Positions 26,681 to 43,732 of a stretch of DNA of 64,000 nt are shown here, piece by piece (the stretch's first letter is position 1; each line of letters begins with the position of its first letter). The stretch spans positions 4,550 through 68,549 of the forward strand of contig JAEWQS010000006.1 of NCBI GenBank assembly GCA_023399095.1, read 5' to 3'. A model generated the notes under the pieces. The model was not told the DNA's origin, did no database searches, and saw only the letters and a list, made by a program, of their open reading frames with translations. Both the position numbers and the translations under genes were made by a program. The stretch comes from Bacillota bacterium. Lineage in GTDB: Bacteria > Bacillota > Clostridia > Christensenellales > SZUA-584.

Positions 26681-27624
26681 ATGAGCGAACAGGACAAGCC
26701 GTCTAAAGCGTTATCTGCCCGCTGCGCTTATCAGCTTGCGGACGTAGAGAAAACTGCGCCCCAATACATATCCATCAGTCCCAGATGGCTGACAAGATTT
26801 TTGGAATGGAAACCGCTTGAGTCGGGCATATTCCGGCTAAACAAGGTGAGAAAAGGTAAGAACTGTTGGAGACGCTGTGCGCCCAGTCTAACGGAGAAGA
26901 TATTCCGGAAGGCTATATTGACTATGAACCGGAGCCCCGCGAATATATTTTAACTTCCGTATCATCCATAATAAAAATCGAGACACGCGTGTCTGATATT
27001 TACAGCAAGCCATATGATCAGATAAAGGAGCAGCTGCGGCTCGGCATGGAGAGCATCAAGGAAAAACAGGAAAGCCTCATCATAAACAGCGATGATTACG
27101 GCCTGCTCAACAACATCGACGATTCACAAAGAATCAAAACGCGAGATGGGTCCCCCACGCCGGATGATCTTGATGAGCTTATCGCCAAGGTGTGGAAGCA
27201 GCCGTCTTTCTTTCTTGCGCACCCTGCCGCCATTGCCGCGTTTGGTCGCGAGTGCACACACCGCGGCGTGCCGCCGGTGGCTGTTAACCTTCATGGCTCC
27301 CCTTTCATCACATGGCGCGGCATTCCGCTTGTGCCCACTGATAAGCTTTTGGTAGACGGGCAAAGAAAGCCGTTTGGGGCAAAAGGAAAAACGAATATTT
27401 TGCTTATTCGCAGCGGTGAAGCCAATCAGGGTGTTATCGGTTTGTATCAGACGGGATTGCCCGGAGAACAGTCACGCGGTATGTCTGTGCGGTTTATGGG
27501 TATCAACAATCAGGGGATCGGTTATTACTTGCTGTCTATTTATTGTTCGGCGGCCATTTTAGCTGACGACGCTATCGCTGTTCTTGAGGACGTCGAAATC
27601 GGAAACTACTATGATTATCAATAA
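26681..27624 (+). pseudogene. Family 2A encapsulin shell protein (HK97 fold); reading frame interrupted by an apparent 1-nt frameshift between 26860 and 26892
   Basis: The frame-A ORF starts at ATG 26681 (AAGGAGA upstream) and gives ...SPRWLTRFLEWKPLESGIFRLNKV..., then stops at 26951-26953. The -1 frame is open from 26860 and gives ...GEDIPEGYIDYEPEPREYIL...RVSDIYSKPYDQIKEQLRL...WRGIPLVPTDKL.... Joined length is about 314 aa. There is no cNMP-binding insert. Confidence 0.75.
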
Positions 27625-29086
27625 TGATCTGGAAGAAATAGAGAGTGGTGCGTTTAATCAGGATACGCTCATAAGGGAATCGGTCGCTTCGCTGGCCAAA
27701 ATGTATTTCCCCGAATTTAATGTGCCTCGTTCTCAAACCTCCGAACCGGCAATCGAATCGGCAGATTTATTTGCCGATCCAATTCGCATCACTCCCCTGC
27801 TTCGATGGGACAAAGAAGAAACAACTTTGGACAGAAAAGAAGACTTGGATTTTACGCGCCAAGACTTTCCTATTCTTTCTGAACGAATAAACGATCATCC
27901 GCTTGTCTGGTTAGATAACGCCGCGACCACTCAAAAGCCTCAATGCGTAATCGACAGAATCAAGTCGTTTTACGAGCATGAAAACTCGAACGTACATCGC
28001 GGTGCGCATACGCTTGCCAAAAGAACGACAGATGCTTATGAAGACGCACGCGCCAAAGCCGCCGTTTTTCTCAATGCCTCTAAGCCCAAAGAGATTGTTT
28101 TTGTTCGCGGCACCACAGAAGCCATTAACCTTGTGGCGCATTCGTACGGTCTCACCCATCTGGATGAAGGCGATGAAGTGCTTATCACGCAGCTGGAACA
28201 CCATGCCAATTTCGTGCCATGGCAGATCGTCTGCGCCAAAACAGGCGCAAAGCTTAAGGCGTCGCCGGTTAACGAGCATGGGCAAGTTGACTTGGCAGCG
28301 TTTGAAAAGTTGCTCAACAGCAAGACAAAGATGGTGGCCATCACGCATGTGTCCAACGCGATTGGCACAATAACTCCTGCTGCTCAAATGATACGAATGG
28401 CGCACGAATATGGCGCCAGAGTGCTGGTGGACGGTGCACAGGCGGTGGCGCATCTGGCGGTGGATGTACAGGCGCTGGATTGCGATTTTTACGTATTTTC
28501 GGGTCATAAAGTATTCGGCCCCACGGGCATTGGGATTCTGTATGCAAAATCCAAGTTGCTTGATGAGATGCCGCCCTATCAGGGCGGCGGCAGCATGATC
28601 GAGGATGTTTCGTTAGAAAGCACAAAATATAAAGCCCCTCCCCACCGTTTTGAAGCGGGAACGGGCAATATCGCGGGTGCAATAGGGCTTGGCGCGGCGC
28701 TTGATTATGTCAGGTGCGTGGGGCTTGATCGTATCGAGCAATACGAACAACGCTTGCTCACACTCGCTATTAAGTCTTTGGAAAGTGTCCCGGGTCTTAA
28801 GTTCATAGGCAAGCCGCAAACAGGAATCGTTTCGTTTTTACTGAATGACGTTTCTCCGGATGAAGTCGGAAAGCGGCTCGACGAGAAAGGCATTGCCGTC
28901 CGTGCGGGCCACCACTGCGCCCAGCCCATACTACGGCATCTCGGCTATGAAAGCACCGTCCGTATGTCGCTTGCCTTTTACAACACACGATCTGAAATTG
29001 ACCGTCTTGCAAACGTACTTAAGAACACCGGCAAAGCCACATCGTATTGGACTTTTCCGCCTATTCCTCCAGCAATGCCTGATTAA
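27611..29086 (+). CDS. SufS/type II cysteine desulfurase with an ~80-aa N-terminal extension (encapsulin cargo type)
   Basis: PLP lysine in FSGHKVFGPTGIG, catalytic Cys in RAGHHCAQP, and LDNAATTQKP near the core N-terminus. The N-terminal extension contains SLAKMYFPEF. The ATG overlaps the shell gene end by 14 nt. Confidence 0.85.
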   Translation: MIINNDLEEIESGAFNQDTLIRESVASLAKMYFPEFNVPRSQTSEPAIESADLFADPIRITPLLRWDKEETTLDRKEDLDFTRQDFPILSERINDHPLVWLDNAATTQKPQCVIDRIKSFYEHENSNVHRGAHTLAKRTTDAYEDARAKAAVFLNASKPKEIVFVRGTTEAINLVAHSYGLTHLDEGDEVLITQLEHHANFVPWQIVCAKTGAKLKASPVNEHGQVDLAAFEKLLNSKTKMVAITHVSNAIGTITPAAQMIRMAHEYGARVLVDGAQAVAHLAVDVQALDCDFYVFSGHKVFGPTGIGILYAKSKLLDEMPPYQGGGSMIEDVSLESTKYKAPPHRFEAGTGNIAGAIGLGAALDYVRCVGLDRIEQYEQRLLTLAIKSLESVPGLKFIGKPQTGIVSFLLNDVSPDEVGKRLDEKGIAVRAGHHCAQPILRHLGYESTVRMSLAFYNTRSEIDRLANVLKNTGKATSYWTFPPIPPAMPD

Positions 29087-30290: not shown

Positions 30291-30968
30291 TTATGTTTTA
30301 AAAATGTAACCATATCCCCAAACAGTCTCTAAAAACTTATGGTATGGTTTGATATTTTCGCGGAGTGTCTTTATATGCGTATCCACAGTGCGATCCGTGC
30401 CGAAGAAATCCTCTCCCCAGACCTCTCTTAATATCATATCTCGGGAAAAAGCACGATTGTGGTTTTTGGCAAGAAAAACAAGCAGTTTGTATTCCTTGGG
30501 CGTTAATAGTATGCCTTCTCCTTCCACATAAACCACATGTGAAATAACATCAATACACAAGCCGTCGAAAATGAGCCGCCGCGGTGTATATTCTTCATGA
30601 TGGGCGCTGTGGCGCAGCAAAACATGAATACGCGCCATAAGCACCTTGCACGAATATGGGATGTTTAAAAAGTCATCCACGCCAAGATCGAAGAAAAAAA
30701 GCTTTTGTTCTTCGCTGCCGTTCCTGGACAATATGATGATTGGCGTCTGAGAGCTTTTGCGAATCTGCCGGCACACAAGCCATGCATCCAGCTCGGGAAG
30801 CTCCGCATTCATCACAATAATATGATAGTCATGACGCCTAAACATTTTTAGTGCGGCGATACCGTCGGCGGCTTCGTCAACGACAAAGTTCTCAAGTGCT
30901 GCGTGTGTTTTTACCGTTGCTCTCAAATCTGCTGCCGGATCGACGACCAATAAGCTAATATCACTCAT
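30291..30968 (-). CDS. Orphan OmpR/PhoB-family response regulator with a degenerate (aspartate-less) receiver domain
   Basis: The C-terminal winged helix (LTPKEYKLLVFLA...VDTHIKTLR.KI.......TVWGYGY) is intact. In the receiver, the phospho-acceptor position reads IIVMNAELP (Asn) and the conserved Lys position reads LNIPY (Ile). Confidence 0.8.
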   Translation of the reverse strand: MSDISLLVVDPAADLRATVKTHAALENFVVDEAADGIAALKMFRRHDYHIIVMNAELPELDAWLVCRQIRKSSQTPIIILSRNGSEEQKLFFFDLGVDDFLNIPYSCKVLMARIHVLLRHSAHHEEYTPRRLIFDGLCIDVISHVVYVEGEGILLTPKEYKLLVFLAKNHNRAFSRDMILREVWGEDFFGTDRTVDTHIKTLRENIKPYHKFLETVWGYGYIFKT

Positions 30969-31278
30969 TATCGGACCCTTTTTTTAATCTGAATCGCTCA
31001 CGTAGCTTATGAAATTTCTCTGGATGTGTGAATGTAATAATAAATATTCTATATCAATCGTATGATAGAAGCAAGTGGTGACATGATTTTAATGAAAATG
31101 TGATGATTCTGTGAAGGAAACAATGATATTACCATGATTTACAGCTTTAAAACGGACCTATAAGAATATAATTGTGAAGATTCATCATTTTTTCATAACA
31201 ATGCTTTGATATGATGCCATTATACCATGAATAAACTTTCAACATCCTGTCAAAATATATCGCGCTTGGAGGTAAAAA

Positions 31279-31791
31279 ATGAGCACAAAACCTGTTAAAG
31301 CCAAGCAAGGCTGCTGCAAGGAATGCAATGATGACAAATTCGCAGCCATTGCCAACGTCATTGATTTGTACAAGGACAAGGAAGGAAGCCTGATACAGAT
31401 CCTCCATCTTGCCCAGCAGATCTATGGATATCTGCCGCTGGAGGTTCAGATCTTCATCGCGGATTCGCTTAAAGTTCCGCTGTCCGAGGTATCCGGGGTG
31501 ATTACATTTTACTCGTTTTTCTCCACTGAGCCAAGAGGACGCCATACCATTCGCGTCTGCCTTGGAACAGCTTGCTACGTAAGAGGCGGCAAAAAAATTG
31601 TGGAAAGCCTCAAGGAAAAGCTGGACGTGGATATTGGCTCCACAACCAAGGATGGTAAATTCACTTTTGAGGTTGCAAGATGCATTGGCGCTTGCGGGCT
31701 TGCTCCGGCCATGATGATAGACGACGTTGTCTACAAACAGGTTAATGTTAACAAACTCAATTCAATATTGGCCAAATATGATAACGAATAA
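31279..31791 (+). CDS. NuoE/HydC-like [2Fe-2S] thioredoxin-fold subunit
   Basis: Cys pattern VCLGTACYVRG...CIGACGLAP. GGAGG lies upstream. Confidence 0.85.
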   Translation: MSTKPVKAKQGCCKECNDDKFAAIANVIDLYKDKEGSLIQILHLAQQIYGYLPLEVQIFIADSLKVPLSEVSGVITFYSFFSTEPRGRHTIRVCLGTACYVRGGKKIVESLKEKLDVDIGSTTKDGKFTFEVARCIGACGLAPAMMIDDVVYKQVNVNKLNSILAKYDNE

Positions 31792-31804
31792 GGAGGTGAG
31801 CGGT

Positions 31805-34800
31805 ATGAAATCAGCCAGAATAAAGACAATTGACCAGCTAAACGAGATCAAGGAAAGATACAATTCCGAGCTGGAAAAATATAAATATCGGATATTCGTC
31901 TGCGCAGGCGCAGGCTGCGTCTCGTCTAACTGCTCTCTTGTCCGGGATGCAGTCATCAGTGAGCTTAAGAACGTCAAAATGCAGGATGAAGTTAAAGTGT
32001 TTGAAACCGGTTGTATGGGAACATGCGCGGTTGGCCCTGTCATGCTTGTGATGCCGGATAAGGTTTTCTACACAGAGCTTGATGAGGATAAAGCGCGTCA
32101 GATCGTCCGCACGCATATCAAAAACGGCCATACCATCGTCCCTTACACGTTCTATGACCATTCGCTTGGCGAACATATTCCAAACATCGACGACATCGGT
32201 TTCTTTAAAAAGCAGGTCAAAATCGCTCTGCGCAACTGCGGCTCCATGGAATACGCGGACATTGAAGCCTATATTGCACGGGACGGCTATTACGCCGCTT
32301 ATAAAGCGCTAAAGGATATGACACCGCAGACAGTCGTACAGGAGGTCAAAACGTCGGGCATCAAGGGGCGCGGCGGTGCAGGCTTCCCCACAGGCGTAAA
32401 ATGGGATGCGGCTCATAAGCAGCAAAGTGAAAGCAAGTATATCGTATGCAACGCGGACGAGGGTGATCCAGGCGCTTTCATGGACAGAAGCATTATCGAG
32501 GGTGATCCCCATACCGTCATCGAAGGCATGCTGATCGGTGGATATGCCATTGGAGCCACAACGGGTTACATCTACGTGCGTGCTGAGTACCCCATCGCGG
32601 TAGACAGAATGACGGCGGCACTGGATGAAGCGAGAAACAGAGGTTTGCTCGGGAAAAACATATTCGGGAGCGGCTTTTCATTTGATATCGAGCTAAGAAT
32701 CGGCGCGGGCGCTTTTGTATGCGGTGAGGAAACATCGCTGATGGCGTCTATTGAAGGCCATCGCGGCGAGCCAAAGCAAAAACCGCCTTTCCCGTTCCAA
32801 AGAGGTCTTTTCGGCAAGCCGACCATCATAAACAATGTCGAGACGCTGGCGAGCATACCGATGATCATACTCAGCGGCGGCGAGTGGTACACACAGTTCG
32901 GCACCGAAAAGAGCAGAGGCACAAAAGTCTTTGCGCTTGCGGGTGACGTCATGAACACGGGTATCGTTGAAGTGCCCATCGGCATACCGCTTGGCGATAT
33001 CATATTCGAAATCGGAGGCGGAACCGTCAACAAGAAGAAATTCAAATCCGCGCAGATCGGCGGACCTTCGGGCGGCTGCATCACGACGGATAATCTCAAC
33101 GTACCGACAGACTACGAACCGTTAAAGGAGCTGGGTGCGATTATGGGCTCGGGCGGGCTTATCGTTATGAACGAGGATACCTGCATGGTCGATACCGCAC
33201 GGTTTTTTATGGATTTTATCAAGGATGAATCCTGCGGCAAATGTACGGCCTGTCGTATCGGCACCAAACGCATGCTTGAGATACTCGAGCGTATCACACG
33301 GGGCGAAGGTGAAGAAGGCGATGTGGAGCTGCTCATCGAGCTTGGCGAGACAATTCAGGAGACAGCCATGTGCGGCCTCGGTCAGACGGCGCCGAATCCT
33401 GTGCTTTCCACCATCAAGTATTTCCGCGAGGAATATGACGAGCACATCAGAAACAAATACTGCCGCGCGGGTGTGTGCAGCGATCTGTTCATTTCGCCGT
33501 GTGAGAATACGTGCCCCGCCAATGTCAACGTGCCGGGTTATATGTCGCTTATCGCCGCAGGACGGTTCACCGATGCGTATAAGCTGATCCGGCAGGAAAA
33601 CCCCTTCCCTGCCGTTTGCGGACGAATCTGCACACGGCCATGCGAAAGCAAATGCCGTAGGCGCACGGTCGACGAAGCGCTGGCCATTTGCGATCTCAAG
33701 CGGTTTGTCGCCGACTACGCAATGAATAATGGTAAAAATGCGTATCAGACCGATGTTGTGTTCCCGAAAAACGGGAAGAGTATTGCAGTGATCGGCGCGG
33801 GCGCGTCGGGGCTGACGTGCGCGTATTATCTTGCGCGTATCGGTTATGATGTGGATGTATTTGAATCGCATAACACAGCAGGCGGCGTGCTGGCATATGG
33901 CATTCCCGAATACCGTCTGCCCAAGGACGTGCTTGACTATGAAGTCAGGCTCATCGAACAGGCGGGTGTCAAAATTCATTTAAATACTGAGGTGGGGCGT
34001 GATATCACGTTCAAAGAGCTCAAAGCGACATATGACGCGATTTATATCGCAACGGGTACGCAATTGCCGCAAAAAATCAATGTGCCCGGAGAGAGCCTTC
34101 CAGGCGTTATGCATGGCATCAAGTTTTTAAAGAAAGCCAACACGCACTCTCCCATCGAAATGGGCAAAAACGTGGTCGTCATCGGCGGCGGCAATACGGC
34201 GATAGACTCCGCAAGGACAGCGCTGCGTTTGGGAGCGGAAAAGGTGACGATACTGTACAGGCGCACCTGTGATTCAATGCCGGCGTACGAGCAGGAAATA
34301 CGTGAAGCCGTGGAAGAAGGCATTGAGATCATATCACTTGCTGCACCCGTGCGCTTCATTCAGGGCGCTGATGGACGCATATCAAAAATCGAATGTATCA
34401 AGATGTGCCTTGGCGATTTCGATGCGTCTTGCCGCAGGCGCAGCGTTTACGTGGAGGATTCAAATTTCTTCATTGATGCCGATATGGTCATACCTGCTGT
34501 CAGCCAGTTTGCAGATTTCCCGTTTATCGGAAAAGACGAGATTGGCCTGACGCCTTGGGGCACGTTTATACTGCAAAGCGATACGCAGATGACCACGATG
34601 GATGGCGTATTCGCTGGCGGCGATGTCACCCGCGGGCCTGACGAGGTGATACGCGCGATTGCGGACGGTAAAAAAGCAGCAATTTCAATCGACAAATATC
34701 TTGGCGGCAAAGGCCATCTCAATAAGGGTGAACCAATTGACATTCCCGAAACCACGGATGAAGACGACATCGTGGCTCATGGCCGGTTTGATCTTGAGAT

Positions 34801-34909
34801 ACTTGATCCGAAAACACGTAAATATTCATTCGACGAAGTGATTAAGGGTTACCATAAGCTCAATGCGATGGCAGAAGCGATGCGCTGTCTGCATTGTGAA
34901 AGGAGGTAG
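31805..34909 (+). CDS. Fusion protein of a NuoF/HydB-like FMN/NADH subunit (N-terminal ~550 aa) and a GltD/NfnB-like FAD/NAD(P)H oxidoreductase (C-terminal ~480 aa)
   Basis: N-terminal 2Fe-2S thioredoxin-like domain (CAGAGC...CMGTC). NuoF motifs are GRGGAGFPTG, NADEGDPGAFMDR and ESCGKCTACRIG. These are followed by GltD-type Cys motifs (CENTCP...CGRICTRPCESKC), IAVIGAGASGL (FAD) and VVVIGGGNTAID (NADPH). ATG at 31805 follows AAGGAGGTGA. Confidence 0.85.
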   Translation: MKSARIKTIDQLNEIKERYNSELEKYKYRIFVCAGAGCVSSNCSLVRDAVISELKNVKMQDEVKVFETGCMGTCAVGPVMLVMPDKVFYTELDEDKARQIVRTHIKNGHTIVPYTFYDHSLGEHIPNIDDIGFFKKQVKIALRNCGSMEYADIEAYIARDGYYAAYKALKDMTPQTVVQEVKTSGIKGRGGAGFPTGVKWDAAHKQQSESKYIVCNADEGDPGAFMDRSIIEGDPHTVIEGMLIGGYAIGATTGYIYVRAEYPIAVDRMTAALDEARNRGLLGKNIFGSGFSFDIELRIGAGAFVCGEETSLMASIEGHRGEPKQKPPFPFQRGLFGKPTIINNVETLASIPMIILSGGEWYTQFGTEKSRGTKVFALAGDVMNTGIVEVPIGIPLGDIIFEIGGGTVNKKKFKSAQIGGPSGGCITTDNLNVPTDYEPLKELGAIMGSGGLIVMNEDTCMVDTARFFMDFIKDESCGKCTACRIGTKRMLEILERITRGEGEEGDVELLIELGETIQETAMCGLGQTAPNPVLSTIKYFREEYDEHIRNKYCRAGVCSDLFISPCENTCPANVNVPGYMSLIAAGRFTDAYKLIRQENPFPAVCGRICTRPCESKCRRRTVDEALAICDLKRFVADYAMNNGKNAYQTDVVFPKNGKSIAVIGAGASGLTCAYYLARIGYDVDVFESHNTAGGVLAYGIPEYRLPKDVLDYEVRLIEQAGVKIHLNTEVGRDITFKELKATYDAIYIATGTQLPQKINVPGESLPGVMHGIKFLKKANTHSPIEMGKNVVVIGGGNTAIDSARTALRLGAEKVTILYRRTCDSMPAYEQEIREAVEEGIEIISLAAPVRFIQGADGRISKIECIKMCLGDFDASCRRRSVYVEDSNFFIDADMVIPAVSQFADFPFIGKDEIGLTPWGTFILQSDTQMTTMDGVFAGGDVTRGPDEVIRAIADGKKAAISIDKYLGGKGHLNKGEPIDIPETTDEDDIVAHGRFDLEILDPKTRKYSFDEVIKGYHKLNAMAEAMRCLHCERR

Positions 34910-34915
34910 TCAGAT

Positions 34916-36940
34916 ATGATTAATTTGCAGATTAACGGCCGCTCGGTGACGGTACCCGAGGACTACACAATCATGGAAGCAGCTAAAACTGTGGGAATTA
35001 AAATTCCCGGGCTTTGCCAAATGGACGGTGTACACCAGTTTGGCTCCTGCCGCATTTGTGTTGTGGAGGTCAAAGGCGCGAAAACACTGCAGGCGTCATG
35101 CCTGGCAAAGGTCGCCGAAGGCATGATTGTGGATACAAATACGGCAAAGGTGAGAAACGCACGGCGCGTGCTCTATGAGCTGCTGCTTTCCGATCATGAT
35201 AAGGACTGCTTAAGCTGTACGAGAAACCAGAGCTGTGAGCTTCAGGAGCTTGGAAAAGTTCTCGGTGTGAGCGAATCGCGCTTCGACGGCGAACACTCGG
35301 AATTTAATCTTGACTCCTCCGTATCCATTACACGCAATATGTCAAAATGCGTGCTGTGTAGGCGCTGCGTCACTGTCTGCAACGAGATTCAGGGAACAGG
35401 AATACTCAACGCGCAGAATCGCGGGTTCCAGACTGTGATTGGCCCAGCGATGGATTTAAAGCTGGGCACCGTCAACTGCGTATTCTGCGGACAGTGTACG
35501 GTGGTTTGTCCGGTGGGTGCGCTCAAGGAAACCGATGCCATACAGCCTGTTTGGAAAGCACTCAGCGACGAGAAAAAAAGATGTGTGGTGCAGGTGGCTC
35601 CTGCAATTCGTGTGGCGATTGGTGAAGAGTTTGGGTATGAACCCGGCGCGCGCGTAACAGGCAAGCTTGCGCAGGCGCTTTCCACGCTGGGGTTCGATGA
35701 CATTTTCGATACGAATTTCACCGCTGACCTTACGATTATGGAGGAAGGCACCGAATTTTTGACACGTGTGAAAAAAGCGTTGACGGGAGGCGAAGCCATG
35801 CTGCCGATGATTACATCGTGCAGCCCGGGCTGGATCAAATATATCGAGCATTCATATCCTGACCTTCTCCCCCATCTGTCAACGTGCAAATCGCCGCATA
35901 CCATGCTGGGTGCGTTGGTCAAATCGTTCTATGCTGAAAAGATCGGCTGCGATCCAAAAGACATGTACGTGGTGTCGGTGATGCCGTGTACCGCCAAGAA
36001 GTTTGAGATCAGCCGTCATGAGATGTGCAATAATGACGTTCCCAATGTGGATGCGGTGCTCACAACAAGAGAGCTTGGGCAAATGGTACGTGAAGCCGGT
36101 ATCGACTTTACTTTGCTGGAAGATCGTGAGTTTGATAATCCGCTTGGCATGTCGACAGGCGCTGCTGATATTTTCGGCGTCACAGGGGGCGTCATGGAAG
36201 CTGCGCTGCGTACCGTATATGAGCTTGTTACAGGGCGCGAACTGCCGTTTGACAAGCTGCATGTCGCACCGATTGTAGGCTTGGAACAAATAAAAACAGC
36301 TGAGATCAAGATTGAAGATACACTGCCGGATTATAAATTCCTGGAAGGCGTTGTCGTGAAGGTGGCTGTGACGAGCGGCCTTTCAGGCGCGAAGATACTC
36401 ATGGATCAAATTAAAAATGGAGAATCACCTTACCACTTTATTGAGGTGATGGGCTGCCCCAATGGATGCATTATGGGCGGCGGACAACCGAGATCCAAAG
36501 ATCCGGATGTAAGGACAAAACGTTTTCAGGGTATTTATGACGAAGATGAAGCCAAGGTCATGCGCAAATCGCATGAGAATCCTTCTGTCAAAAAGCTTTA
36601 TGAAGAGTATCTGGAATTCCCAAACAGCCATGTGTCACACAAACTGCTGCATACGCATTATGTCAAACGCGGACGGTTTAATGAGTTCCTGGAGGACGAA
36701 TATGTGAATGAAGAGGTGATTCCTATGGCGGAAAAGAACAAAGCATCTGCCAAGCAGACGCAAAAAAAAACGGCTCAGGAGCGCGCATCCAGACGGGTTC
36801 ATGAGGACTTAGAGTCGGTCAAAGTCATGTCCTTGGAGGCTGAGGTAACCCGGCTCAAACAGGAATTATCCGATTCTCAGGAAACTGTCGAGATATTAAA
36901 AGATGTGATGAGCGATTACGCTAAAAAGCCCAAAAGATAA
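34916..36940 (+). CDS. hydA: [FeFe]-hydrogenase large-subunit-like protein (M3-type F-cluster N-terminus) with variant P1 motif TSCSPGW and an ~88-aa C-terminal coiled-coil extension
   Basis: N-terminal plant-type 2Fe-2S (CQMDG...GSCRICVVEV), His-ligated 4Fe-4S and 2x CxxCxxCxxxCP. H-cluster motifs are P2 VMPCTAKKFE and P3 EVMGCPNGCIMGGGQP. P1 reads TSCSPGW, whereas the canonical motif is TSCCPxW. Confidence 0.85.
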   Translation: MINLQINGRSVTVPEDYTIMEAAKTVGIKIPGLCQMDGVHQFGSCRICVVEVKGAKTLQASCLAKVAEGMIVDTNTAKVRNARRVLYELLLSDHDKDCLSCTRNQSCELQELGKVLGVSESRFDGEHSEFNLDSSVSITRNMSKCVLCRRCVTVCNEIQGTGILNAQNRGFQTVIGPAMDLKLGTVNCVFCGQCTVVCPVGALKETDAIQPVWKALSDEKKRCVVQVAPAIRVAIGEEFGYEPGARVTGKLAQALSTLGFDDIFDTNFTADLTIMEEGTEFLTRVKKALTGGEAMLPMITSCSPGWIKYIEHSYPDLLPHLSTCKSPHTMLGALVKSFYAEKIGCDPKDMYVVSVMPCTAKKFEISRHEMCNNDVPNVDAVLTTRELGQMVREAGIDFTLLEDREFDNPLGMSTGAADIFGVTGGVMEAALRTVYELVTGRELPFDKLHVAPIVGLEQIKTAEIKIEDTLPDYKFLEGVVVKVAVTSGLSGAKILMDQIKNGESPYHFIEVMGCPNGCIMGGGQPRSKDPDVRTKRFQGIYDEDEAKVMRKSHENPSVKKLYEEYLEFPNSHVSHKLLHTHYVKRGRFNEFLEDEYVNEEVIPMAEKNKASAKQTQKKTAQERASRRVHEDLESVKVMSLEAEVTRLKQELSDSQETVEILKDVMSDYAKKPKR

Positions 36941-36960: not shown

Positions 36961-36990
36961 AAAAGCCGGTTATGTGCCGGCTTTTACTTT
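36961..36990 (+). terminator. Rho-independent terminator after the hydrogenase operon
   Basis: Stem AAAAGCCGG/CCGGCTTTT with a 7-nt loop and a T-rich tail. It overlaps the 3' end of the convergent gerA-family gene. Confidence 0.6.
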
Positions 36991-38450
36991 TCATTTTTTT
37001 CGTTTTGTATCGGCGCTCGCGTATTGTCCTTGTTTCTTAAATATGCGGGGCGATGTGGGGCGATAGACTTGCTGTACACAATTGATTTGAGAAAATCTCG
37101 CATGTTAAATGGTGCAGCAGGCGCCATATATGGCACGCCGAACGTGTTAATGGATACAAGATGTGAAATAATAAGGACAACGACGAGAGTAAATCCATAA
37201 AAGCCAAATGTACCTGATGCGATGATTAACAAGAATTTTAAAATGCGAAACGGATTAACAATCATGTAGTCAGACGGTACGAAAGACGCGATAAGGGACA
37301 TCGAAATAACGATTAACAGCAGCGGGCTGAATACTCCCGCTGAAACCGCAGCTTGACCGATAATAATTGCCCCGACGATACCTATAGCAGTACCGATTTT
37401 GGTGGGTACTCGAATCAACGATTCTCTGATCAGTTCGCCGATTGTTTCAATAAGCAGCACTTCAATCAGCGCATTGAACGGCACCTTTGCCCGGCTTTCA
37501 GCTATAGCGATCATGTAGGTTCCGGGCAACACATCGTTGTGGAAGGATACAATTGCCACGTAAATAGAGGAAACAGCAAAAGAGATGTTGAGAGAAATGA
37601 CCCGTAGAATCCTCATGAATGTGCCAAAGTATTTATTGGCATAAAAATCATCGCATGACCATATATATTCGCTGAACACCTTTGGCGCGACAAGCGCCCA
37701 TGGACTGCCATCCATGATAATGACAACCTTGCCTTCTAAAATAGCTCCGCATGCCATATCCGAGCGCTCAATAATTCCCATCTGAGGGAAAATGCTTCTC
37801 TGATTGTTAAGCAGATACGATTCTAGTTCGCCCGAGGAAACAAGCCCGTCAACATCAACTTTTGATATTCTTTTCTTGATTTCGGTTATACAAGTATTGT
37901 TGGCGACATCTTCAAGATAAAGAATCGCAATACTTGTTTTTGTTCTCCTGCCCACTTTCATGCTTTCAACACGCAAATTCTCGTCCTTTATTCGGTACCT
38001 AACAAGCGAGAGATTGGTATCAAGATTTTCAATGAATGCGTCTCTTGGCCCTCTTATCGTGTAGGTAAACTCAGGAACAGGGATAGCACGTTTCTCAACT
38101 TTTTTAATATCCATGACCAGGTATTGGTTATCAGAGGAGAATAAAGCGACTGTCATGCCGCTCAATATGTATTGCTCAATTTTCGCTTTATCTGAATCCA
38201 GCGTGCATTGGCTGGCGCTGACAATATTCGCCGCATCGGCGGCTTTCACATTCGTCTGCCCATTAGTTGCTGCAAGTGGCTTTATGACATACTCTGATAT
38301 TCCCGTTAGATCGGTGAGTTCTTTAATATAAAACAAAGAGATAGATTCAGATTTTAACGAGATCGTTCGTTGTACAACATCCATGTTCTTTTCTCTGATT
38401 GCGCTGATTATGTTCTCATATCTTATGTTCTGATTGTTCTGCCTCTGCAT
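36984..38450 (-). CDS. Spore germination protein, GerA family A subunit
   Basis: 488 aa with the typical soluble N-domain and a C-terminal 5-TM region (PLLLIVISMSLIASF...). Last gene of a B-C-A operon. Confidence 0.85.
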   Translation of the reverse strand: MQRQNNQNIRYENIISAIREKNMDVVQRTISLKSESISLFYIKELTDLTGISEYVIKPLAATNGQTNVKAADAANIVSASQCTLDSDKAKIEQYILSGMTVALFSSDNQYLVMDIKKVEKRAIPVPEFTYTIRGPRDAFIENLDTNLSLVRYRIKDENLRVESMKVGRRTKTSIAILYLEDVANNTCITEIKKRISKVDVDGLVSSGELESYLLNNQRSIFPQMGIIERSDMACGAILEGKVVIIMDGSPWALVAPKVFSEYIWSCDDFYANKYFGTFMRILRVISLNISFAVSSIYVAIVSFHNDVLPGTYMIAIAESRAKVPFNALIEVLLIETIGELIRESLIRVPTKIGTAIGIVGAIIIGQAAVSAGVFSPLLLIVISMSLIASFVPSDYMIVNPFRILKFLLIIASGTFGFYGFTLVVVLIISHLVSINTFGVPYMAPAAPFNMRDFLKSIVYSKSIAPHRPAYLRNKDNTRAPIQNEKNEK

Positions 38451-38460
38451 TAATTCTCCT

Positions 38461-39600
38461 CTATTTAGCGAGTTTCTGGCCCATTGTTTCGAAATCCATC
38501 ATGTTCCCCATCAAAAGATTGGACTCGGCCGATACTGTGAAACTTGCATTCAAATAAGTATCTTTCCAATTGATATTTTTCAGCACATTCGGATATTTAA
38601 TGCGAAAATGTTCTTTAAACTGTAGATAGTCGCACTGCACTTCTTTTGAATGCATGAGAGCTTGTGATATATCCCCCAATATCGCATTCAGCAGGTTTTG
38701 CGTCACGTCTTTTTGAATGTGTTCATCAAACTTGGTATTCTTGCTAAGATACATAACCTTGGATTCAAACTTAAATTTTAAATCAAACTTCAATTTCCCA
38801 TTTTCGTAAGTTGGTTTATACTTTTTAATTTTTAGAGTTACCTCTATTGTTGCTTCACTGTCATCAAACGGAATCACATACAAACGTTTTATGTTATCTC
38901 CTAAAATCCAGACAAGACCTCTTGACTGTTCTACAGGGATAAAATCTATAAGTTTGTTTTCATGAAAAACGGTAAAACCGTTGTATGTAAGTACACCATC
39001 TTCAACATCCAAATTGGGTAGCACAAAGCATGTATTGCTGTAGATAAACTCAAGCAAGTCCGAAACCGTGTATACGTGTATCTTCTCCAACGCCTTTAGA
39101 CTCTTGATAGTGTCATCAATGGATTCTCCAATGGACACATTATTTGGCGGCTGAACAGCTAGAATATCTTCTGGGCTCGAAAAGGATGTCACAACATTGA
39201 GCGTTTTTCTGTACTGCACATCCGATTGCATACGCAGCATATACTCCTCTATGCCAGCCTTTCCGAGATCGTCAGTAATTACAAGCGCTTTTACAGTACC
39301 TAAAAAAATAGGATTGTCTGTTTTTGCATTTAAATGCCTCCTTGCGTCCGCAAAAGTTGTACCCTTAGCATATATCATTTGGTAGCTTTTTTTACTTGCA
39401 TAGTCTCCAATACCTGGCTGATTCTGTCCTTGGCCTAAATTCGGGGATTCTATATAAAAAGCAAAATCATCATCCTGTTTATCTGAAATAACAGTGACAA
39501 CCAGCGTTTTGTTATTGACATCCATTGAATCCCAGCATCCCGATCCCACAAATAAAAAGCCAATTATTAAGAAGATACACGATGCTATTTTAAGACGCAT
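38461..39600 (-). CDS. Ger(x)C family germination lipoprotein
   Basis: Lipobox FVGSGCWD, with size and pattern typical of GerAC-type proteins. It overlaps the upstream B subunit by 11 nt. Confidence 0.8.
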   Translation of the reverse strand: MRLKIASCIFLIIGFLFVGSGCWDSMDVNNKTLVVTVISDKQDDDFAFYIESPNLGQGQNQPGIGDYASKKSYQMIYAKGTTFADARRHLNAKTDNPIFLGTVKALVITDDLGKAGIEEYMLRMQSDVQYRKTLNVVTSFSSPEDILAVQPPNNVSIGESIDDTIKSLKALEKIHVYTVSDLLEFIYSNTCFVLPNLDVEDGVLTYNGFTVFHENKLIDFIPVEQSRGLVWILGDNIKRLYVIPFDDSEATIEVTLKIKKYKPTYENGKLKFDLKFKFESKVMYLSKNTKFDEHIQKDVTQNLLNAILGDISQALMHSKEVQCDYLQFKEHFRIKYPNVLKNINWKDTYLNASFTVSAESNLLMGNMMDFETMGQKLAK

Positions 39601-40699
39601 TTCTTTTGCCTTTCTTTTGAACTTTTCTTATTTTTGCCAGAAACAATAGGCATACCGGAATCACAAAGCAGGTCATAAGACCTAAATATGTACCAATATC
39701 CTCAACGAATTGTTCATATTTGGCCAAGTCTTTCACAAGGAAGAATATGATGTAAGTTATAATCCCAATAATTGTTATAATCATTGACTTTTTAATGTTA
39801 TTAAAAATACGACTTAAATACTCTGCGATAACAGCAATAACAATGGAGAAACCCACAAAAAGAGCGCTAAAACCGATTGTCAGATATAAAATGTCCATCC
39901 TTGTGAAAATTACTATCTTTTCAGGAGAAGTATCGCGAATAGCCACAATCAGAGCATCTTTGAAATTAACAATATCATTGAGTCCAACCTTCATTATGCA
40001 GCTTTCGACCAAAAAGATATAAAACAAACCGATAAACATAATTGTTAGAAATGCTGTTCTTTTTGCTTTTTTGCCGTTTTTTTTGGTTAGTGGAATAGCC
40101 AGCAGCAACTCGATTCCTAAAAAAGGAAATATTGAGTATTTAAAAGCTTCGACATAGTTTTTAATTTCAGCTGCATTAAAAAAAGGCTGTATGCGACTAA
40201 TCTTCCCTTGAGATACCATAATTAAATGCACAAAAATAGCAGTAATAATAAAAACAACGCCGATGAGCTCTGCCAATCGGCTGACGTTTGTGATTCCTTT
40301 ATTGGCAATAAAGCAGAAAACAGGTATGCCTATAAGAGGGAAAGACCAAAGCGGCGTCTGCGGAAAAAAATCCGCCTTAAGAAGGCGGGCGTTCATTGTG
40401 ACTAAATAAACGACAATGAAAAAAAAGTACATTACATAAAAAATAACAACGATGTATGTTGCTGGTTTACCAATGATTTGAGGCGCATATTCAAACAACA
40501 TCTTTCCCTGAAACATGCTGTTAAGACTAACTATAATCACAGCGGCCACGCCGAAAATGAGCGCCGTTAATATAAGTGTTATCCAATTTCCCGTTCCTGC
40601 GCTCTCAGCCATCACTTTAGGTATCACAATGACGCTGTAGCATGTCAACGTGATAATGAGAACCATGACCATCTGCCTGTTCGTTATGCTGTTCATCAA
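39590..40699 (-). CDS. Spore germination permease, GerAB/APC-superfamily B subunit
   Basis: 369 aa, about 10 TM helices, N-terminal ITNRQM motif typical of GerXB proteins. Confidence 0.8.
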   Translation of the reverse strand: MMNSITNRQMVMVLIITLTCYSVIVIPKVMAESAGTGNWITLILTALIFGVAAVIIVSLNSMFQGKMLFEYAPQIIGKPATYIVVIFYVMYFFFIVVYLVTMNARLLKADFFPQTPLWSFPLIGIPVFCFIANKGITNVSRLAELIGVVFIITAIFVHLIMVSQGKISRIQPFFNAAEIKNYVEAFKYSIFPFLGIELLLAIPLTKKNGKKAKRTAFLTIMFIGLFYIFLVESCIMKVGLNDIVNFKDALIVAIRDTSPEKIVIFTRMDILYLTIGFSALFVGFSIVIAVIAEYLSRIFNNIKKSMIITIIGIITYIIFFLVKDLAKYEQFVEDIGTYLGLMTCFVIPVCLLFLAKIRKVQKKGKRNAS

Positions 40700-43669: not shown

Positions 43670-43732
43670 ATATCCTCCAGTTAATGACAAATCTAATAAT
43701 TATATTATAGCACAAAATGTCTTTAAGATGGA

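What the first reader, a model, noticed from the sequence alone, without database searches (positions are those of the whole stretch)
31279..36940. Three-gene HydABC-like operon in which the NuoF-like subunit is fused to a GltD/NfnB-like NADPH module
**What the sequence shows**
- The gene order is a NuoE-like subunit, then a 1034-aa fusion protein, then a HydA-like subunit.
- The fusion keeps the full NuoF module. This includes the N-terminal 2Fe-2S domain, GRGGAGFPTG, NADEGDPGAFMDR and ESCGKCTACRIG.
- The usual C-terminal 2x[4Fe-4S] ferredoxin domain is absent.
- In its place the fusion continues into a complete GltD-type module. This has the CENTCP...CGRICTRPCESKC clusters plus GAGASGL and GGGNTAID dinucleotide folds.
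- The complex therefore has two separate pyridine-nucleotide/flavin sites.

**Comparison with known systems**
- GltD-linked [FeFe] hydrogenases are classed as group A2 in the Greening/HydDB scheme and, to my knowledge, lack biochemical characterisation.
- The combination also recalls the Sporomusa-type Nfn transhydrogenase (Stn), which I recall as being built from NfnB-, HydB- and HydA-like parts.

**Open questions**
- It is not known whether this enzyme is an NAD(P)-linked or bifurcating hydrogenase, or a transhydrogenase.
- No hydE, hydF or hydG maturase genes are in the window.
Basis: partly seen in the sequence, partly recalled or inferred. Interest (0 to 1): 0.7.

Follow-up and report, generated by a model that had tools for sequence, protein, structure and literature searches.

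The report
Hydrogenase with built-in NADPH module
This is a real, widely conserved three-gene iron-iron hydrogenase in which the part that normally hands electrons to ferredoxin is replaced by an NADPH-binding flavin module, so it probably links hydrogen gas to both NADH and NADPH; nobody has yet tested this in the lab.

Summary
Window 31279-36940 (+) encodes three subunits: a NuoE/HydC-like subunit, a 1034-aa NuoF/HydB::GltD fusion, and a complete [FeFe] HydA. A hairpin terminator follows.

- **The fusion is not an artefact.** More than 120 protein clusters share the full-length architecture. About 30 Clostridia and Oligoflexia genomes keep the same gene order.
- **Where the join lies.** It sits directly after the HydB zinc-hinge motif, where the ferredoxin-like 2x[4Fe-4S] domain of bifurcating HydB normally begins.
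- **Nature of the added module.** It is the circularly permuted, Lys-bearing, NADPH-type GltD cassette found in Stn/NfnABC transhydrogenases. It is not an NfnB-type bifurcating module.
- **State of the NuoF core.** It keeps every published "bifurcating" signature, and all cofactor ligands are invariant.
- **HydA.** It is closest to the Acetobacterium woodii and Thermoanaerobacter kivui bifurcating HydA1.
- **A reusable module.** Elsewhere, NuoE plus NuoF::GltD pairs with [FeFe] HydA in Sphaerochaeta, with a [NiFe] Hox-type enzyme, or with a formate-dehydrogenase-like subunit.
- **A fourth linked gene.** An OmpR-type response regulator is conserved next to the operon.

Best reading, which is inferred and untested: a ferredoxin-independent hydrogenase coupling H2 to NAD and NADP together.

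Prior art: HydDB "group A2" is uncharacterised. A 2024 paper noted a GltA-domain HydB in archaeal hybrid hydrogenases.

Verdict: new variant of a known kind, of moderate to high interest.

The parts
30291..30968 (-). OmpR-family response regulator, divergently transcribed; a conserved fourth gene linked to the operon and its putative regulator
   Evidence: Pfam gives Response_reg plus Trans_reg_C. Orthologues (49-96% identity) lie immediately upstream and divergent in close relatives. In the 49-53%-identity relatives they lie immediately downstream of hydA on the same strand. The phospho-acceptor position is Asn in the window and its two closest relatives, and Asp in the others.
30969..31278 (.). 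Divergent promoter and regulatory region, with conserved TGTGA direct repeats (31099-31103, 31110-31114, 31173-31177) and a GGAGG ribosome-binding site before hydC
   Evidence: Alignment of eight orthologous intergenic regions shows the conserved blocks. That these are regulator-binding sites is inference.
31279..31791 (+). hydC: NuoE-like thioredoxin-fold [2Fe-2S] subunit (the C1 cluster; CLGTAC at residues 94-99 and CIGAC at residues 135-139)
   Evidence: PF01257 at 174 bits; HoxE and NuoE NCBIfam models also match. Motifs located. Conserved upstream of the fusion in all loci.
31805..33490 (+). hydB part of the fusion (residues 1-562): N-terminal [2Fe-2S] domain, FMN/NADH site, SLBB domain, [4Fe-4S] domain and the His/Cys zinc-hinge motif HIRNKYCRAGVC (33443-33478)
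   Evidence: Pfam. PDB: A. woodii HydB 7q4v_B at 711 bits covers residues 28-562. Hinge alignment. Bifurcating-type signatures GAFMDR, GAGAFVCGEE and GGPSG are present, and the ligand Cys are 100% conserved in 125 sequences.
33491..34909 (+). GltD-type module of the fusion (residues 563-1034): 2x[4Fe-4S] (Cys 566, 570, 605, 609, 613, 617, 1028, 1031), Lys632, FAD fold GAGASGL, and NADPH fold GGGNTAID plus YRR. It is circularly permuted and ends in RCLHCERR-stop
   Evidence: Pfam Fer4_20 plus Pyr_redox_2; NCBIfam PRK12771 at 503 bits. PDB alignments to 9bov_A, 9n5u_A, 8oh5_C, 4ylf_B and 5jca_L. Conservation.
34916..36940 (+). hydA: [FeFe]-hydrogenase catalytic subunit. It has an N-terminal [2Fe-2S], a His-ligated [4Fe-4S], 2x[4Fe-4S], an H-cluster domain (P1 TSCSPGW 35813-35833, P2 MPCTAKKFE, P3 EVMGCPNGC) and an 88-aa Cys-free charged tail (36674-36937)
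   Evidence: Pfam and NCBIfam NF040763, 865 bits against a cut-off of 765. PDB: A. woodii HydA1 at 619 bits, with the same TSCSPGW, and T. kivui HydA1 at 609 bits. The motifs are present in all 26 loci that cover them. Coordinates.
36961..36985 (+). Hairpin terminator between the convergent hydA and gerA genes
   Evidence: Stem of 10 pairs followed by a T-run.

Best explanation
**What it is (shown).** A cytoplasmic heterotrimeric [FeFe]-hydrogenase of the HydABC/Bfu lineage. The mobile C-terminal ferredoxin-like domain of HydB (clusters B3/B4, the ferredoxin-reducing end of the low-potential branch) has been swapped for a Stn-type GltD cassette. The swap point is exactly after the zinc hinge. 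The cassette carries two [4Fe-4S] clusters, FAD and an NADPH site.

**How it most likely works (inferred).**
- H2 is split at the H-cluster of HydA.
- Electrons run along the HydA FeS chain to the FMN/[4Fe-4S]/[2Fe-2S] 'flavobicluster' formed by HydB and HydC.
- From there one electron path reduces NAD+ at the FMN.
- The other path goes through the mobile HydC cluster into the two GltD clusters and the FAD, which reduces NADP+ in place of ferredoxin.
- Net reaction: 2 H2 + NAD+ + NADP+ <-> NADH + NADPH + 2 H+, reversible and independent of ferredoxin.

**Energetics (inference from textbook values).** With cellular potentials of about -280 mV for NAD and -380 mV for NADP (values in PMC9304861), my own Nernst estimate puts the equilibrium near 100 Pa H2. 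The enzyme could therefore make NADPH from H2, or vent NADH plus NADPH as H2 at low H2.

**Regulation (inferred).** A neighbouring OmpR-type regulator probably controls expression.
For: **Architecture and conservation**
- establish the three subunits and their conservation.
- The join lies immediately after the conserved H-x5-C-x4-C hinge shared with A. woodii and T. kivui HydB and with StnB. The sequence then continues as StnC/NfnA residue 102 onward.

**Where the swapped domain sits in the known mechanism**
- Published Bfu structures place the low-potential path as FMN to C1 to B3/B4 to ferredoxin. Ferredoxin docks on the BfuB C-terminal domain, which is the domain replaced here (PMC12018979; PMC9499530).

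**The NuoF core looks bifurcating**
- All three residue signatures of Losey et al. for bifurcating beta subunits are present and invariant in 125 family members: Ala/Met in GAFMDR, Phe in GAGAFVCGEE, and GGPSG.

**The GltD module looks like an NADPH entry/exit module**
- All eight cluster Cys are 100% conserved, as are the GxGxxA NADP fold, the YRR motif and the FAD fold.
- Lys632 matches StnC K170, the ligand typical of the non-bifurcating NADPH module. NfnB has Glu at this position.
- The closest solved relatives, StnC and NfnA-Bfu, are experimentally NADPH-specific.

**HydA looks active**
- It keeps all H-cluster motifs and shares its P1 variant with the active A. woodii enzyme.

**Modularity**
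- The same NuoE plus NuoF::GltD pair also serves [NiFe] Hox-type and Fdh-like partners, as expected of a self-contained electron-output module.
Against: - No biochemical data exist for any member of this family.
- The only published comment on a GltA/GltD-domain HydB concerns archaeal hybrid hydrogenases. It guesses that ferredoxin is the acceptor at that domain (PMC11216029).
- The position of the GltD module in the complex is unknown. My AlphaFold model was too poor to use (pLDDT 63, pTM 0.45).
- NAD and NADP have the same standard potential. A bifurcation between them relies on cellular ratios and would give a much smaller driving span than NAD/ferredoxin.
- NADPH specificity is inferred from motifs only.
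- The NuoF 'bifurcating' signatures are correlative.
Confidence: 0.45

Rival explanations
1. Non-bifurcating, dual-cofactor hydrogenase. NADH (at the FMN) and NADPH (at the FAD) each exchange electrons with the H-cluster on their own. The GltD module simply adds an NADPH port to an NADH-dependent hydrogenase.
For: - Non-bifurcating NADH-dependent HydAB(C) enzymes exist, and they lack the C-terminal HydB clusters (PMC7311640).
- The Stn-type FAD module is itself non-bifurcating.
- NCBIfam names this HydA 'NADH-dependent'.
Against: - The HydB core carries all three bifurcating-type signatures, not the non-bifurcating ones, and keeps the N-terminal [2Fe-2S] domain and the zinc hinge.
- An ungated enzyme would also short-circuit NADPH to NAD+ and dissipate the cellular NADPH/NADH disequilibrium. 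This point is inference.
Confidence: 0.2
2. The enzyme is still ferredoxin-dependent. The GltD [4Fe-4S] pair replaces B3/B4 as the ferredoxin docking site, as in NfnSL where ferredoxin is served by these clusters. The enzyme would then bifurcate H2 electrons to NAD(P)+ and ferredoxin, or work as a four-substrate redox valve.
For: - Greening et al. [quoted passage not shown]
- In NfnAB the two clusters of the GltD-like subunit are the low-potential route to ferredoxin.
Against: - The module keeps a complete, invariant FAD and NADPH site. That would be pointless for a pure ferredoxin dock.
- It has the Lys ligand of the Stn type, not the Glu that gives NfnB its low-potential proximal cluster.
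- The ferredoxin site seen by cryo-EM needs the BfuB ferredoxin-like domain, which is missing here.
Confidence: 0.15
3. The complex is primarily a Stn-like NADH:NADP+ transhydrogenase. HydA would serve only as an overflow valve or as an inactive scaffold.
For: - The GltD cassette is closest to those of the Stn/NfnABC transhydrogenases.
- The NuoE plus NuoF::GltD pair also occurs with only a small HoxU-like FeS protein and no catalytic partner, for example at L039.
Against: - HydA keeps every H-cluster motif in all 26 loci that cover them and is 46-96% identical across phyla, which indicates selection on catalysis.
- Stn needs the ferredoxin-like StnB domain for its bifurcation.
Confidence: 0.08
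4. The classic 'group A2' idea: the GltD part is a glutamate-synthase small subunit, and the hydrogenase feeds reductant to glutamate synthesis.
For: [quoted passage not shown]
Against: - No gltB-sized ORF lies in the window. The largest ORFs are the fusion itself and an 805-aa protein.
- No conserved neighbour exists other than the regulator.
- The module is the permuted Stn type, not a free GltD.
Confidence: 0.03
5. The fusion is an assembly or annotation artefact, such as a missed stop or frameshift.
For: One related MAG copy (L017) shows two frame breaks within the fusion gene.
Against: - The ORF is continuous in the window.
- More than 120 independent clusters and dozens of genomes from several phyla have the same uninterrupted protein, with the join at the same place.
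Confidence: 0.01

Closest known systems
Electron-bifurcating [FeFe]-hydrogenase HydABC of Acetobacterium woodii and Thermoanaerobacter kivui (PDB 7Q4V, 8A6T); Bfu family, HydDB group A3
   Same: - Same three subunits and the same gene order.
- HydA matches at 619 and 609 bits, and HydB residues 28-562 at 711 and 654 bits.
- Same zinc-hinge motif, N-terminal [2Fe-2S] domain, FMN/NADH site and bifurcating-type residue signatures.
- Same P1 variant TSCSPGW as A. woodii.
   Different: - The C-terminal ferredoxin-like 2x[4Fe-4S] domain of HydB is absent. That domain is the ferredoxin site and is conserved in all characterised bifurcating enzymes.
- A 472-aa GltD module with FAD and an NADPH site takes its place.
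- HydA carries an extra 88-aa C-terminal tail.
Stn / NfnABC (Nfn-Bfu) transhydrogenases (Sporomusa ovata 8OH5; Caldicellulosiruptor saccharolyticus and Thermococcus sibiricus NfnABC; of PDB entries 9N5U and 9BOV only the sequence matches were checked here)
   Same: - Same NuoE plus NuoF bifurcating core.
- Same kind of GltD cassette: circularly permuted, with the N-terminal 'RCLxC' segment moved to the end.
- Same Lys at the proximal-cluster position, same YRR/GxGxxA NADPH site, and 353-412 bits to the solved structures.
   Different: - In Stn the cassette is inserted in the large NuoG-like subunit, after its [2Fe-2S] domain. There it feeds the mid-potential path.
- The NuoF-like subunit of Stn keeps its ferredoxin domain.
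- Stn has no hydrogenase.
- Here the cassette hangs on the NuoF-like subunit in place of the ferredoxin domain, and the large subunit is a true HydA.
HydDB group A2, 'glutamate synthase-linked (putative)' [FeFe]-hydrogenases
   Same: - An [FeFe] group A HydA is genetically linked to a GltD-type domain.
- The group is still uncharacterised, and is reported in 17% of gut bacterial species.
   Different: - The original definition requires a downstream GltD protein without NuoF.
- Here GltD is fused to NuoF, lies upstream of hydA, and is accompanied by NuoE.
- By sequence this HydA sits with the A3/A6-type enzymes.
HydB with a 'GltA domain' in the archaeal group F hybrid [FeFe]/[NiFe] hydrogenase complexes (Greening et al., Cell 2024)
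   Same: - The diaphorase subunit combines NuoF-like and glutamate-synthase-like parts and lies next to a NuoE-like subunit.
- A related fused protein from an archaeal MAG (L034) is 43% identical to the window fusion over residues 48-1034.
   Different: - That is a five-gene hybrid complex with a HyhS-HydA fusion, HyhL and a NuoG-like conduit.
- Its function was modelled only, and NADP(H) was not considered.
- The window enzyme is a plain bacterial trimer.
NfnAB / NfnSL (Thermotoga maritima 4YLF, Pyrococcus furiosus 5JCA)
   Same: The GltD-like fold with two [4Fe-4S] clusters, FAD and an NADPH site; 318-357 bits.
   Different: - NfnB has the normal, unpermuted topology.
- It has a Glu ligand on the proximal cluster and a bifurcating FAD.
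- It partners with a PyrK-like NfnA, and none of these features is present here.

Membership tests
Bfu-type electron-bifurcating [FeFe]-hydrogenase (HydABC, group A3) | HydA with complete H-cluster motifs P1-P3 and N-terminal FeS domains | tested here: met
   TSCSPGW, MPCTAKKFE and EVMGCPNGC are present, together with the 2Fe-2S, His-4Fe-4S and 2x4Fe-4S domains. The P1 motif is identical to that of the active A. woodii HydA1.
Bfu-type electron-bifurcating [FeFe]-hydrogenase (HydABC, group A3) | NuoE-like HydC with a [2Fe-2S] cluster, and NuoF-like HydB with an FMN/NADH site and [4Fe-4S] cluster (the 'flavobicluster') | tested here: met
   Pfam and NCBIfam domains. All ligand Cys are invariant.
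Bfu-type electron-bifurcating [FeFe]-hydrogenase (HydABC, group A3) | Bifurcating-type residue signatures in HydB (Losey et al. 2020): A/E and M in GxFMD, Phe in GAGAF, and GGPSG | tested here: met
   GAFMDR, GAGAFVCGEE and GGPSG are present. All diagnostic residues are 100% conserved in 125 sequences, except Ser422 at 124 of 125.
Bfu-type electron-bifurcating [FeFe]-hydrogenase (HydABC, group A3) | HydB C-terminal ferredoxin-like domain with the B3/B4 [4Fe-4S] clusters (the ferredoxin site) | tested here: not met
   Alignments to all solved HydB, StnB and NfnB-Bfu chains stop at about residue 562. No Fer4 dicluster domain is detected. A GltD module follows instead.
Bfu-type electron-bifurcating [FeFe]-hydrogenase (HydABC, group A3) | Coupled H2 : NAD+ / ferredoxin activity | not testable with these tools
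   This needs an enzyme assay.
HydDB [FeFe] group A2 (glutamate synthase-linked) | The protein encoded immediately downstream of hydA has a GltA/GltD domain but not NuoF (original HydDB rule) | tested here: not met
   The gene downstream of hydA is a convergent gerA. The GltD domain is upstream and fused to NuoF.
HydDB [FeFe] group A2 (glutamate synthase-linked) | Glutamate-synthase CDD domains (PRK12771, PRK12814, COG0493) in hydA or within two genes of it (2026 preprint rule) | tested here: met
   As scored by the NCBIfam models carrying the same names, PRK12771 gives 503 bits and PRK12814 gives 485 bits on the adjacent gene.
Stn / NfnABC transhydrogenase | GltD module inserted in the NuoG-like large subunit, which lacks an H-cluster | tested here: not met
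   The module is on the NuoF-like subunit. The large subunit is a true HydA.
Stn / NfnABC transhydrogenase | Permuted GltD cassette with a Lys (StnC K170) at the proximal cluster and a GxGxxA/YRR NADPH site | tested here: met
   Alignments to 8oh5_C, 9bov_A and 9n5u_A. K632, Y818-R819-R820 and the G/N/A/D positions of GGGNTAID are invariant. The significance of K170 comes from PMC10482914.
NfnAB / NfnSL | Glu ligand on the proximal [4Fe-4S] cluster, and a PyrK-like NfnA partner | tested here: not met
   Lys is found in place of Glu. No NfnA-like gene lies in the operon or is conserved in the flanks.
NCBIfam NF040763 'NADH-dependent [FeFe] hydrogenase, group A6' | HMM score above the curated cut-off | tested here: met
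   865.5 bits against a cut-off of 765. This concerns HydA only and says nothing about the partner subunits.

The most novel reading that the evidence does not exclude
NuoE plus NuoF::GltD may define a ferredoxin-free branch of the Bfu family. In it, the flavobicluster would split electrons from a mid-potential donor (H2 via [FeFe] or [NiFe] hydrogenase, or formate) between NAD+ as the high-potential acceptor and NADP+ as the low-potential acceptor. The cell's NADH/NADPH disequilibrium would replace ferredoxin as the energy-coupling partner. The window's enzyme would then be an H2-driven NADPH generator (or an NADH+NADPH-driven H2 valve). It would also give a first concrete, testable function for at least the NuoF-fused subset of the widespread, uncharacterised GltD-linked 'group A2' hydrogenases.
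Probability: 0.3. Interest if true: 0.85.

Novelty: new variant of a known kind. Interest (0 to 1): 0.62.

Why it matters
- **An open question in H2 metabolism.** GltD-linked [FeFe]-hydrogenases are reported in about 17% of human-gut bacterial species. They are still left out of H2 budgets because nobody knows what they do.
- **A specific, testable proposal.** This locus shows a clean natural domain swap at the point where bifurcating hydrogenases hand low-potential electrons to ferredoxin. The implied reaction is H2 with NAD plus NADP and no ferredoxin.
- **If the proposal is right.** It would add a new coupling logic to flavin/FeS-based bifurcation. It would change how redox balance and H2 thresholds are modelled for Christensenellales, Oscillospiraceae and Sphaerochaeta. 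It would also offer a direct H2-to-NADPH catalyst for biocatalysis.
- **If the proposal is wrong.** The same assays would still settle whether the Bfu C-terminal domain can be exchanged for another electron-output module.

Tried and rejected
- **Source contig look-up.** The look-up of encoding contigs on the window HydA found no exact record. I annotated the neighbours by Pfam instead.
- **AlphaFold2.** I modelled the fusion with a 62-sequence alignment. Mean pLDDT was 62.9 and pTM 0.45. That is too poor to place the GltD module or to justify a fold search, so the model was not used.
- **Profile-based locus search.** The search with the alignment of divergent fusions failed for lack of a conserved stretch. 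I used the single protein P0123 instead.
- **Rfam.** No RNA family was found anywhere in the window, so there is no riboswitch or leader upstream of the operon.
- **Literature.** Nine full-text searches found no paper that describes or assays a bacterial NuoE / NuoF::GltD / HydA trimer. The Bfu family survey (PMC9304861) and the HydB survey of Losey et al. (PMC7311640) do not mention such a fusion.
- **Considered and rejected.**
  - Assembly artefact.
  - An inactive HydA on account of the TSCSPGW motif. This was rejected because A. woodii HydA1 has the same motif and Ser at that position is reported as common in Bfu-type HydA.
  - A single origin of the fusion. A rough NJ tree of the NuoF cores does not group the fused proteins. 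That tree has no support values, so one origin followed by divergence is not excluded.

Full report

Yes. The + strand carries three tightly packed ORFs:
- 31279-31791, 170 aa.
- 31805-34909, 1034 aa from the ATG.
- 34916-36940, 674 aa.

An in-frame TTG at 31727 would extend the second ORF, but homologues align from the ATG. AAGGAGG-type ribosome-binding sites sit 5-7 nt before the second and third start codons. The third site overlaps the last codons of the fusion. A 10-bp-stem terminator at 36961-36985 closes the operon against a convergent gerA gene.

Pfam and NCBIfam give the following:
- The first protein is a NuoE-type [2Fe-2S] protein.
- The second has an N-terminal thioredoxin-like [2Fe-2S] domain, the Nuo51 FMN domain, SLBB and the NuoF [4Fe-4S] domain. 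It then has the GltD-type Fer4_20 domain and a two-Rossmann Pyr_redox_2 domain (PRK12771 at 503 bits, PRK12814 at 485 bits).
- The third is a full M3-type HydA. NF040763 scores 865 bits against a cut-off of 765.

No bacterial-ferredoxin dicluster domain is present in the fusion.

The fusion is not a sequencing artefact:
- More than 120 clusters at 90% identity have the same length (about 1030-1035 aa) and the same domain set.
- Thirty genome loci, from 94% down to 49% identity, keep the NuoE, fusion, HydA order wherever the contig is long enough. They come from Christensenellales, Oscillospiraceae (Sporobacter, Papillibacter), Saccharofermentanales, unclassified Bacillota MAGs and two Oligoflexia MAGs.

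No ORF in the window has a radical-SAM CxxxCxxC motif or the HydF CxH...HCxxC motif. The maturases therefore lie elsewhere in the genome.

**2. Anatomy of the fusion**

The NuoF half (residues 28-562) matches A. woodii HydB (7q4v_B, 711 bits), T. kivui HydB and StnB.

The alignments run through the motif HIRNKYCRAGVC (residues 547-558). This corresponds letter for letter to HIRDKKCPAGVC in A. woodii and T. kivui HydB; StnB differs only in the spacer (HIRDKKCPAKSC). In T. maritima HydABC the corresponding region is a His/Cys3 zinc site, proposed to act as a hinge for the mobile C-terminal FeS domain (PMC9499530).

Four residues later, from residue 563-564 ('SPCENTCP'), the sequence aligns to residue 102-104 of StnC (8oh5_C), 9bov_A and NfnA-Bfu (9n5u_A). 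That is the first residue of their inserted GltD cassette.

The cassette is circularly permuted relative to free GltD/NfnB:
- The last 35 residues of the fusion (...FDEVIKGYHKLNAMAEAMRCLHCERR) align to the N-terminus of T. maritima NfnB (residues 11-43, ...RCLQCP).
- This is the same arrangement as the end of the StnC cassette at residue 566.
- The two terminal Cys therefore most likely complete the first cluster, by homology to NfnB and StnC.

Lys632 aligns with StnC K170. That residue coordinates the FAD-proximal cluster, is strictly conserved in StnC, and is replaced by Glu in the bifurcating NfnB.

In an alignment of 125 family members, the following are invariant:
- The four Cys of the N-terminal [2Fe-2S] cluster.
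- Three of the four Cys of the NuoF [4Fe-4S] cluster; the fourth, Cys483, is in 124 of 125.
- H547, C553 and C558 of the hinge.
- All eight GltD Cys.
- K632, the glycines of the FAD fold, and the G, N, A and D positions of the GGGNTAID (GxGxxA) fold.
- Y818-R819-R820.

The three residue signatures that Losey et al. use to tell bifurcating from non-bifurcating beta subunits are present. The diagnostic residues are all invariant except Ser422 (124 of 125). The signatures are Ala/Met in GAFMDR, Phe in GAGAFVCGEE, and GGPSG.

**3. HydA**

The best solved relatives are the bifurcating HydA1 of A. woodii (619 bits) and T. kivui (609 bits). T. maritima HydA and CpI score about 420 bits.

The P1 motif is TSCSPGW rather than the textbook TSCCPxW. 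A. woodii HydA1 has the identical string. A survey of Bfu-type hydrogenases reports Ser as common at that position (PMC11406978). All 26 related loci that cover the region keep TSCSPGW, MPCTAKKxE and ExMxCPxGC. I therefore take HydA to be catalytically competent.

An 88-residue, Cys-free, Glu/Lys-rich tail (residues 587-674) has no counterpart in the solved enzymes. It is kept in most Clostridia relatives but is missing in L009, Oligoflexia and Sphaerochaeta.

**4. Wider distribution**

I searched the whole fusion against 1.84 billion representative proteins.
- About twelve clusters at 50% identity contain full-length NuoF::GltD proteins, down to 34% identity. There are also fragments that cross the join.
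- Below these, hits are ordinary HydB/NuoF or GltD proteins.
- In all twelve clusters the two halves abut within 3-15 residues.

Loci recovered with one divergent member (P0123) always have NuoE upstream, but the third gene varies:
- Full [FeFe] HydA in Sphaerochaeta, including the cultured S. halotolerans 4-11 and Sphaerochaeta sp. PS.
- HoxU-like plus HoxY plus HoxH ([NiFe]) in an Acidobacteriaceae MAG (L113).
- A 914-aa molybdopterin/Fdh-like subunit in an Omnitrophota MAG (L035).
- Only a 258-273-aa HoxU-like FeS protein in several Thermodesulfobacteriota and 'delta-proteobacterial' MAGs. In L039 the following genes are on the other strand.

NuoE plus NuoF::GltD thus behaves as a portable module, much as the BfuBC core does. 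A rough NJ tree of the NuoF cores does not group the fused proteins. The window clade sits among unfused A. woodii-like HydBs. This hints at repeated fusion or domain exchange, but the tree has no support values.

**5. A fourth linked gene**

The only other gene family conserved around the operon is an OmpR-type response regulator.
- In the window and close relatives it lies immediately upstream and divergent (30291-30968).
- In the relatives whose regulator orthologue is 49-53% identical (fusion 67-72% identical) it lies immediately downstream of hydA on the same strand.
- Keeping the linkage in two different arrangements argues for a functional tie.

In the window, L001 and L003 the phospho-acceptor Asp is replaced by Asn (IIVMNAELP). 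Other orthologues keep Asp. All share a 'VCRQ(I/F)RK' motif containing a Cys.

The shared intergenic region holds conserved TGTGA direct repeats. Two of them are 11 bp apart (31099-31114) and a third is at 31173. That these are binding sites is inference.

**6. Mechanism**

What is shown is the cofactor inventory and the position of the swap. What follows is inference from published Bfu structures.

In those enzymes:
- The mid-potential substrate feeds electrons through the large subunit to a flavobicluster made of FMN, the B1 [4Fe-4S] cluster and the C1 [2Fe-2S] cluster.
- NAD+ is reduced at the FMN.
- The low-potential electrons leave via the mobile NuoE-like domain to B3/B4 in the C-terminal ferredoxin-like domain of BfuB. 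Ferredoxin docks there (PMC12018979; PMC9499530; PMC10482914).

Here that domain is replaced, right after its hinge, by two [4Fe-4S] clusters leading to FAD and an NADPH site of the non-bifurcating Stn type.

The simplest reading is that NADP+ takes the place of ferredoxin:

2 H2 + NAD+ + NADP+ <-> NADH + NADPH + 2 H+

The in-vivo potentials quoted in the Bfu survey are about -280 mV for NAD and -380 mV for NADP. Their mean is about -330 mV. By my own Nernst estimate, not a tool result, this corresponds to roughly 100 Pa H2. The reaction would thus be reversible at environmental H2 levels. It would keep the bifurcation logic, with a mid-potential donor between a high and a low acceptor. A gated mechanism would also prevent wasteful NADPH-to-NAD+ short-circuiting.

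My estimates are:
- Main model: about 0.45.
- Ungated dual-port NAD(P)H hydrogenase: 0.2.
- Retained ferredoxin coupling at the GltD clusters: 0.15. This is the guess made for archaeal hybrid enzymes in PMC11216029.
- Transhydrogenase-first function: 0.08.
- Feeding glutamate synthase: 0.03.

**7. Comparison with what is known**

*Works like.* A HydABC/Bfu hydrogenase whose third port has been re-plumbed using the NADPH cassette of Stn/NfnABC.

*Membership.*
- Bfu. The enzyme meets every sequence criterion of a Bfu-type hydrogenase except the defining C-terminal ferredoxin-like domain of BfuB. It should not be filed as a canonical A3 enzyme.
- Stn. It fails the Stn definition: the cassette is on the wrong subunit, a true hydrogenase is present, and there is no ferredoxin domain.
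- Group A2. It fails HydDB's original A2 rule, which requires a downstream GltD protein without NuoF. It would be labelled A2 by the 2026 rule set, which calls A2 'functionally uncharacterised' and finds it in 17% of gut species.
- NCBIfam labels the HydA as 'group A6, NADH-dependent'.

*Prior art.* A 2024 Cell paper noted a HydB with a 'GltA domain' in archaeal group F hybrid [FeFe]/[NiFe] complexes. It modelled that domain as the site of an undetermined low-potential acceptor and did not mention NADP(H). I found no description or assay of the bacterial trimer (searches listed under Tried and rejected).

**8. Verdict**

It is best called a new variant of a known kind: a Bfu/HydABC hydrogenase with an NADPH module in place of the ferredoxin domain. 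It belongs to a broad, multi-phylum family whose module also serves [NiFe] and Fdh-like partners.

Interest is moderate to high. The architecture yields a sharp hypothesis that can be tested with standard assays, and it bears on the open 'group A2' question. The score is tempered because such fusions have already been glimpsed in databases and in one paper, and because every functional statement here is inference.

Noticed in passing
window 26866-29086 (+): An SrpI-like type 2A encapsulin shell gene (PF19307, E 1e-95) is directly followed by, and slightly overlaps, a class-V cysteine desulfurase (PF00266, 491 bits). The desulfurase has an N-terminal extension of about 100 aa. Together they look like a desulfurase-loaded encapsulin pair, about 2 kb upstream of the hydrogenase operon.
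   Followed up: no
window 30291-30968 (-); L001, L003: In the operon-linked OmpR-type response regulator, the phospho-acceptor Asp is replaced by Asn in the window and its closest relatives. More distant orthologues keep Asp. All orthologues share a Cys-containing 'VCRQ(I/F)RK' motif that a typical paralogue (42977-43690) lacks. No histidine kinase lies next to it.
   Followed up: partly
window 36674-36937 (HydA residues 587-674): HydA has an 88-aa Cys-free, Glu/Lys-rich and probably helical C-terminal tail that is absent from solved HydA structures. It is conserved in most Clostridia relatives but missing in L009, Oligoflexia and Sphaerochaeta. Its function is unknown; oligomerisation or docking of the GltD module are possibilities.
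   Followed up: partly
L113 9167-11837; L035 9066-11810; L039 9145-9936: The NuoE plus NuoF::GltD pair also occurs with other partners: HoxU/HoxY/HoxH-like [NiFe] hydrogenase genes (Acidobacteriaceae MAG), a molybdopterin/formate-dehydrogenase-like subunit (Omnitrophota MAG), or only a small HoxU-like FeS protein (Thermodesulfobacteriota MAGs).
   Followed up: partly
L017 8001-11067 versus L002 (same MAG, SZUA-584): One MAG holds two copies of the operon. The copy on the long contig matches the fusion in three different reading frames, with breaks near residues 112 and 891-901. It is either a pseudogene or an assembly error. The copy on the short contig is intact.
   Followed up: no
window 31279-36940 versus flanks: The operon has 50.5% G+C. 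The whole window has 43.3%, and the 10 kb downstream has 40.6%. This may reflect horizontal acquisition or the composition of a conserved, highly expressed operon. The patchy multi-phylum distribution fits gene transfer.
   Followed up: no
window 35813-35833 (HydA P1 motif): The P1 motif is TSCSPGW, with Ser where the textbook motif TSCCPxW has its second Cys. From memory, that second Cys is the [4Fe-4S]H ligand in CpI. The motif is invariant in this family and identical in A. woodii HydA1. How the cluster is ligated in these enzymes was not pursued.
   Followed up: partly
window 22058-24186 (+) and 36984-40699 (-): An HGD-D/DUF2229 protein is paired with a BcrAD/BadFG-type ATPase, which suggests a 2-hydroxyacyl-CoA-dehydratase-like component with its activase. 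Downstream, on the opposite strand, is a gerA gene (Pfam-confirmed) followed by two ORFs that look like gerC and gerB from their sequence. This suggests a spore-forming Bacillota host.
   Followed up: no
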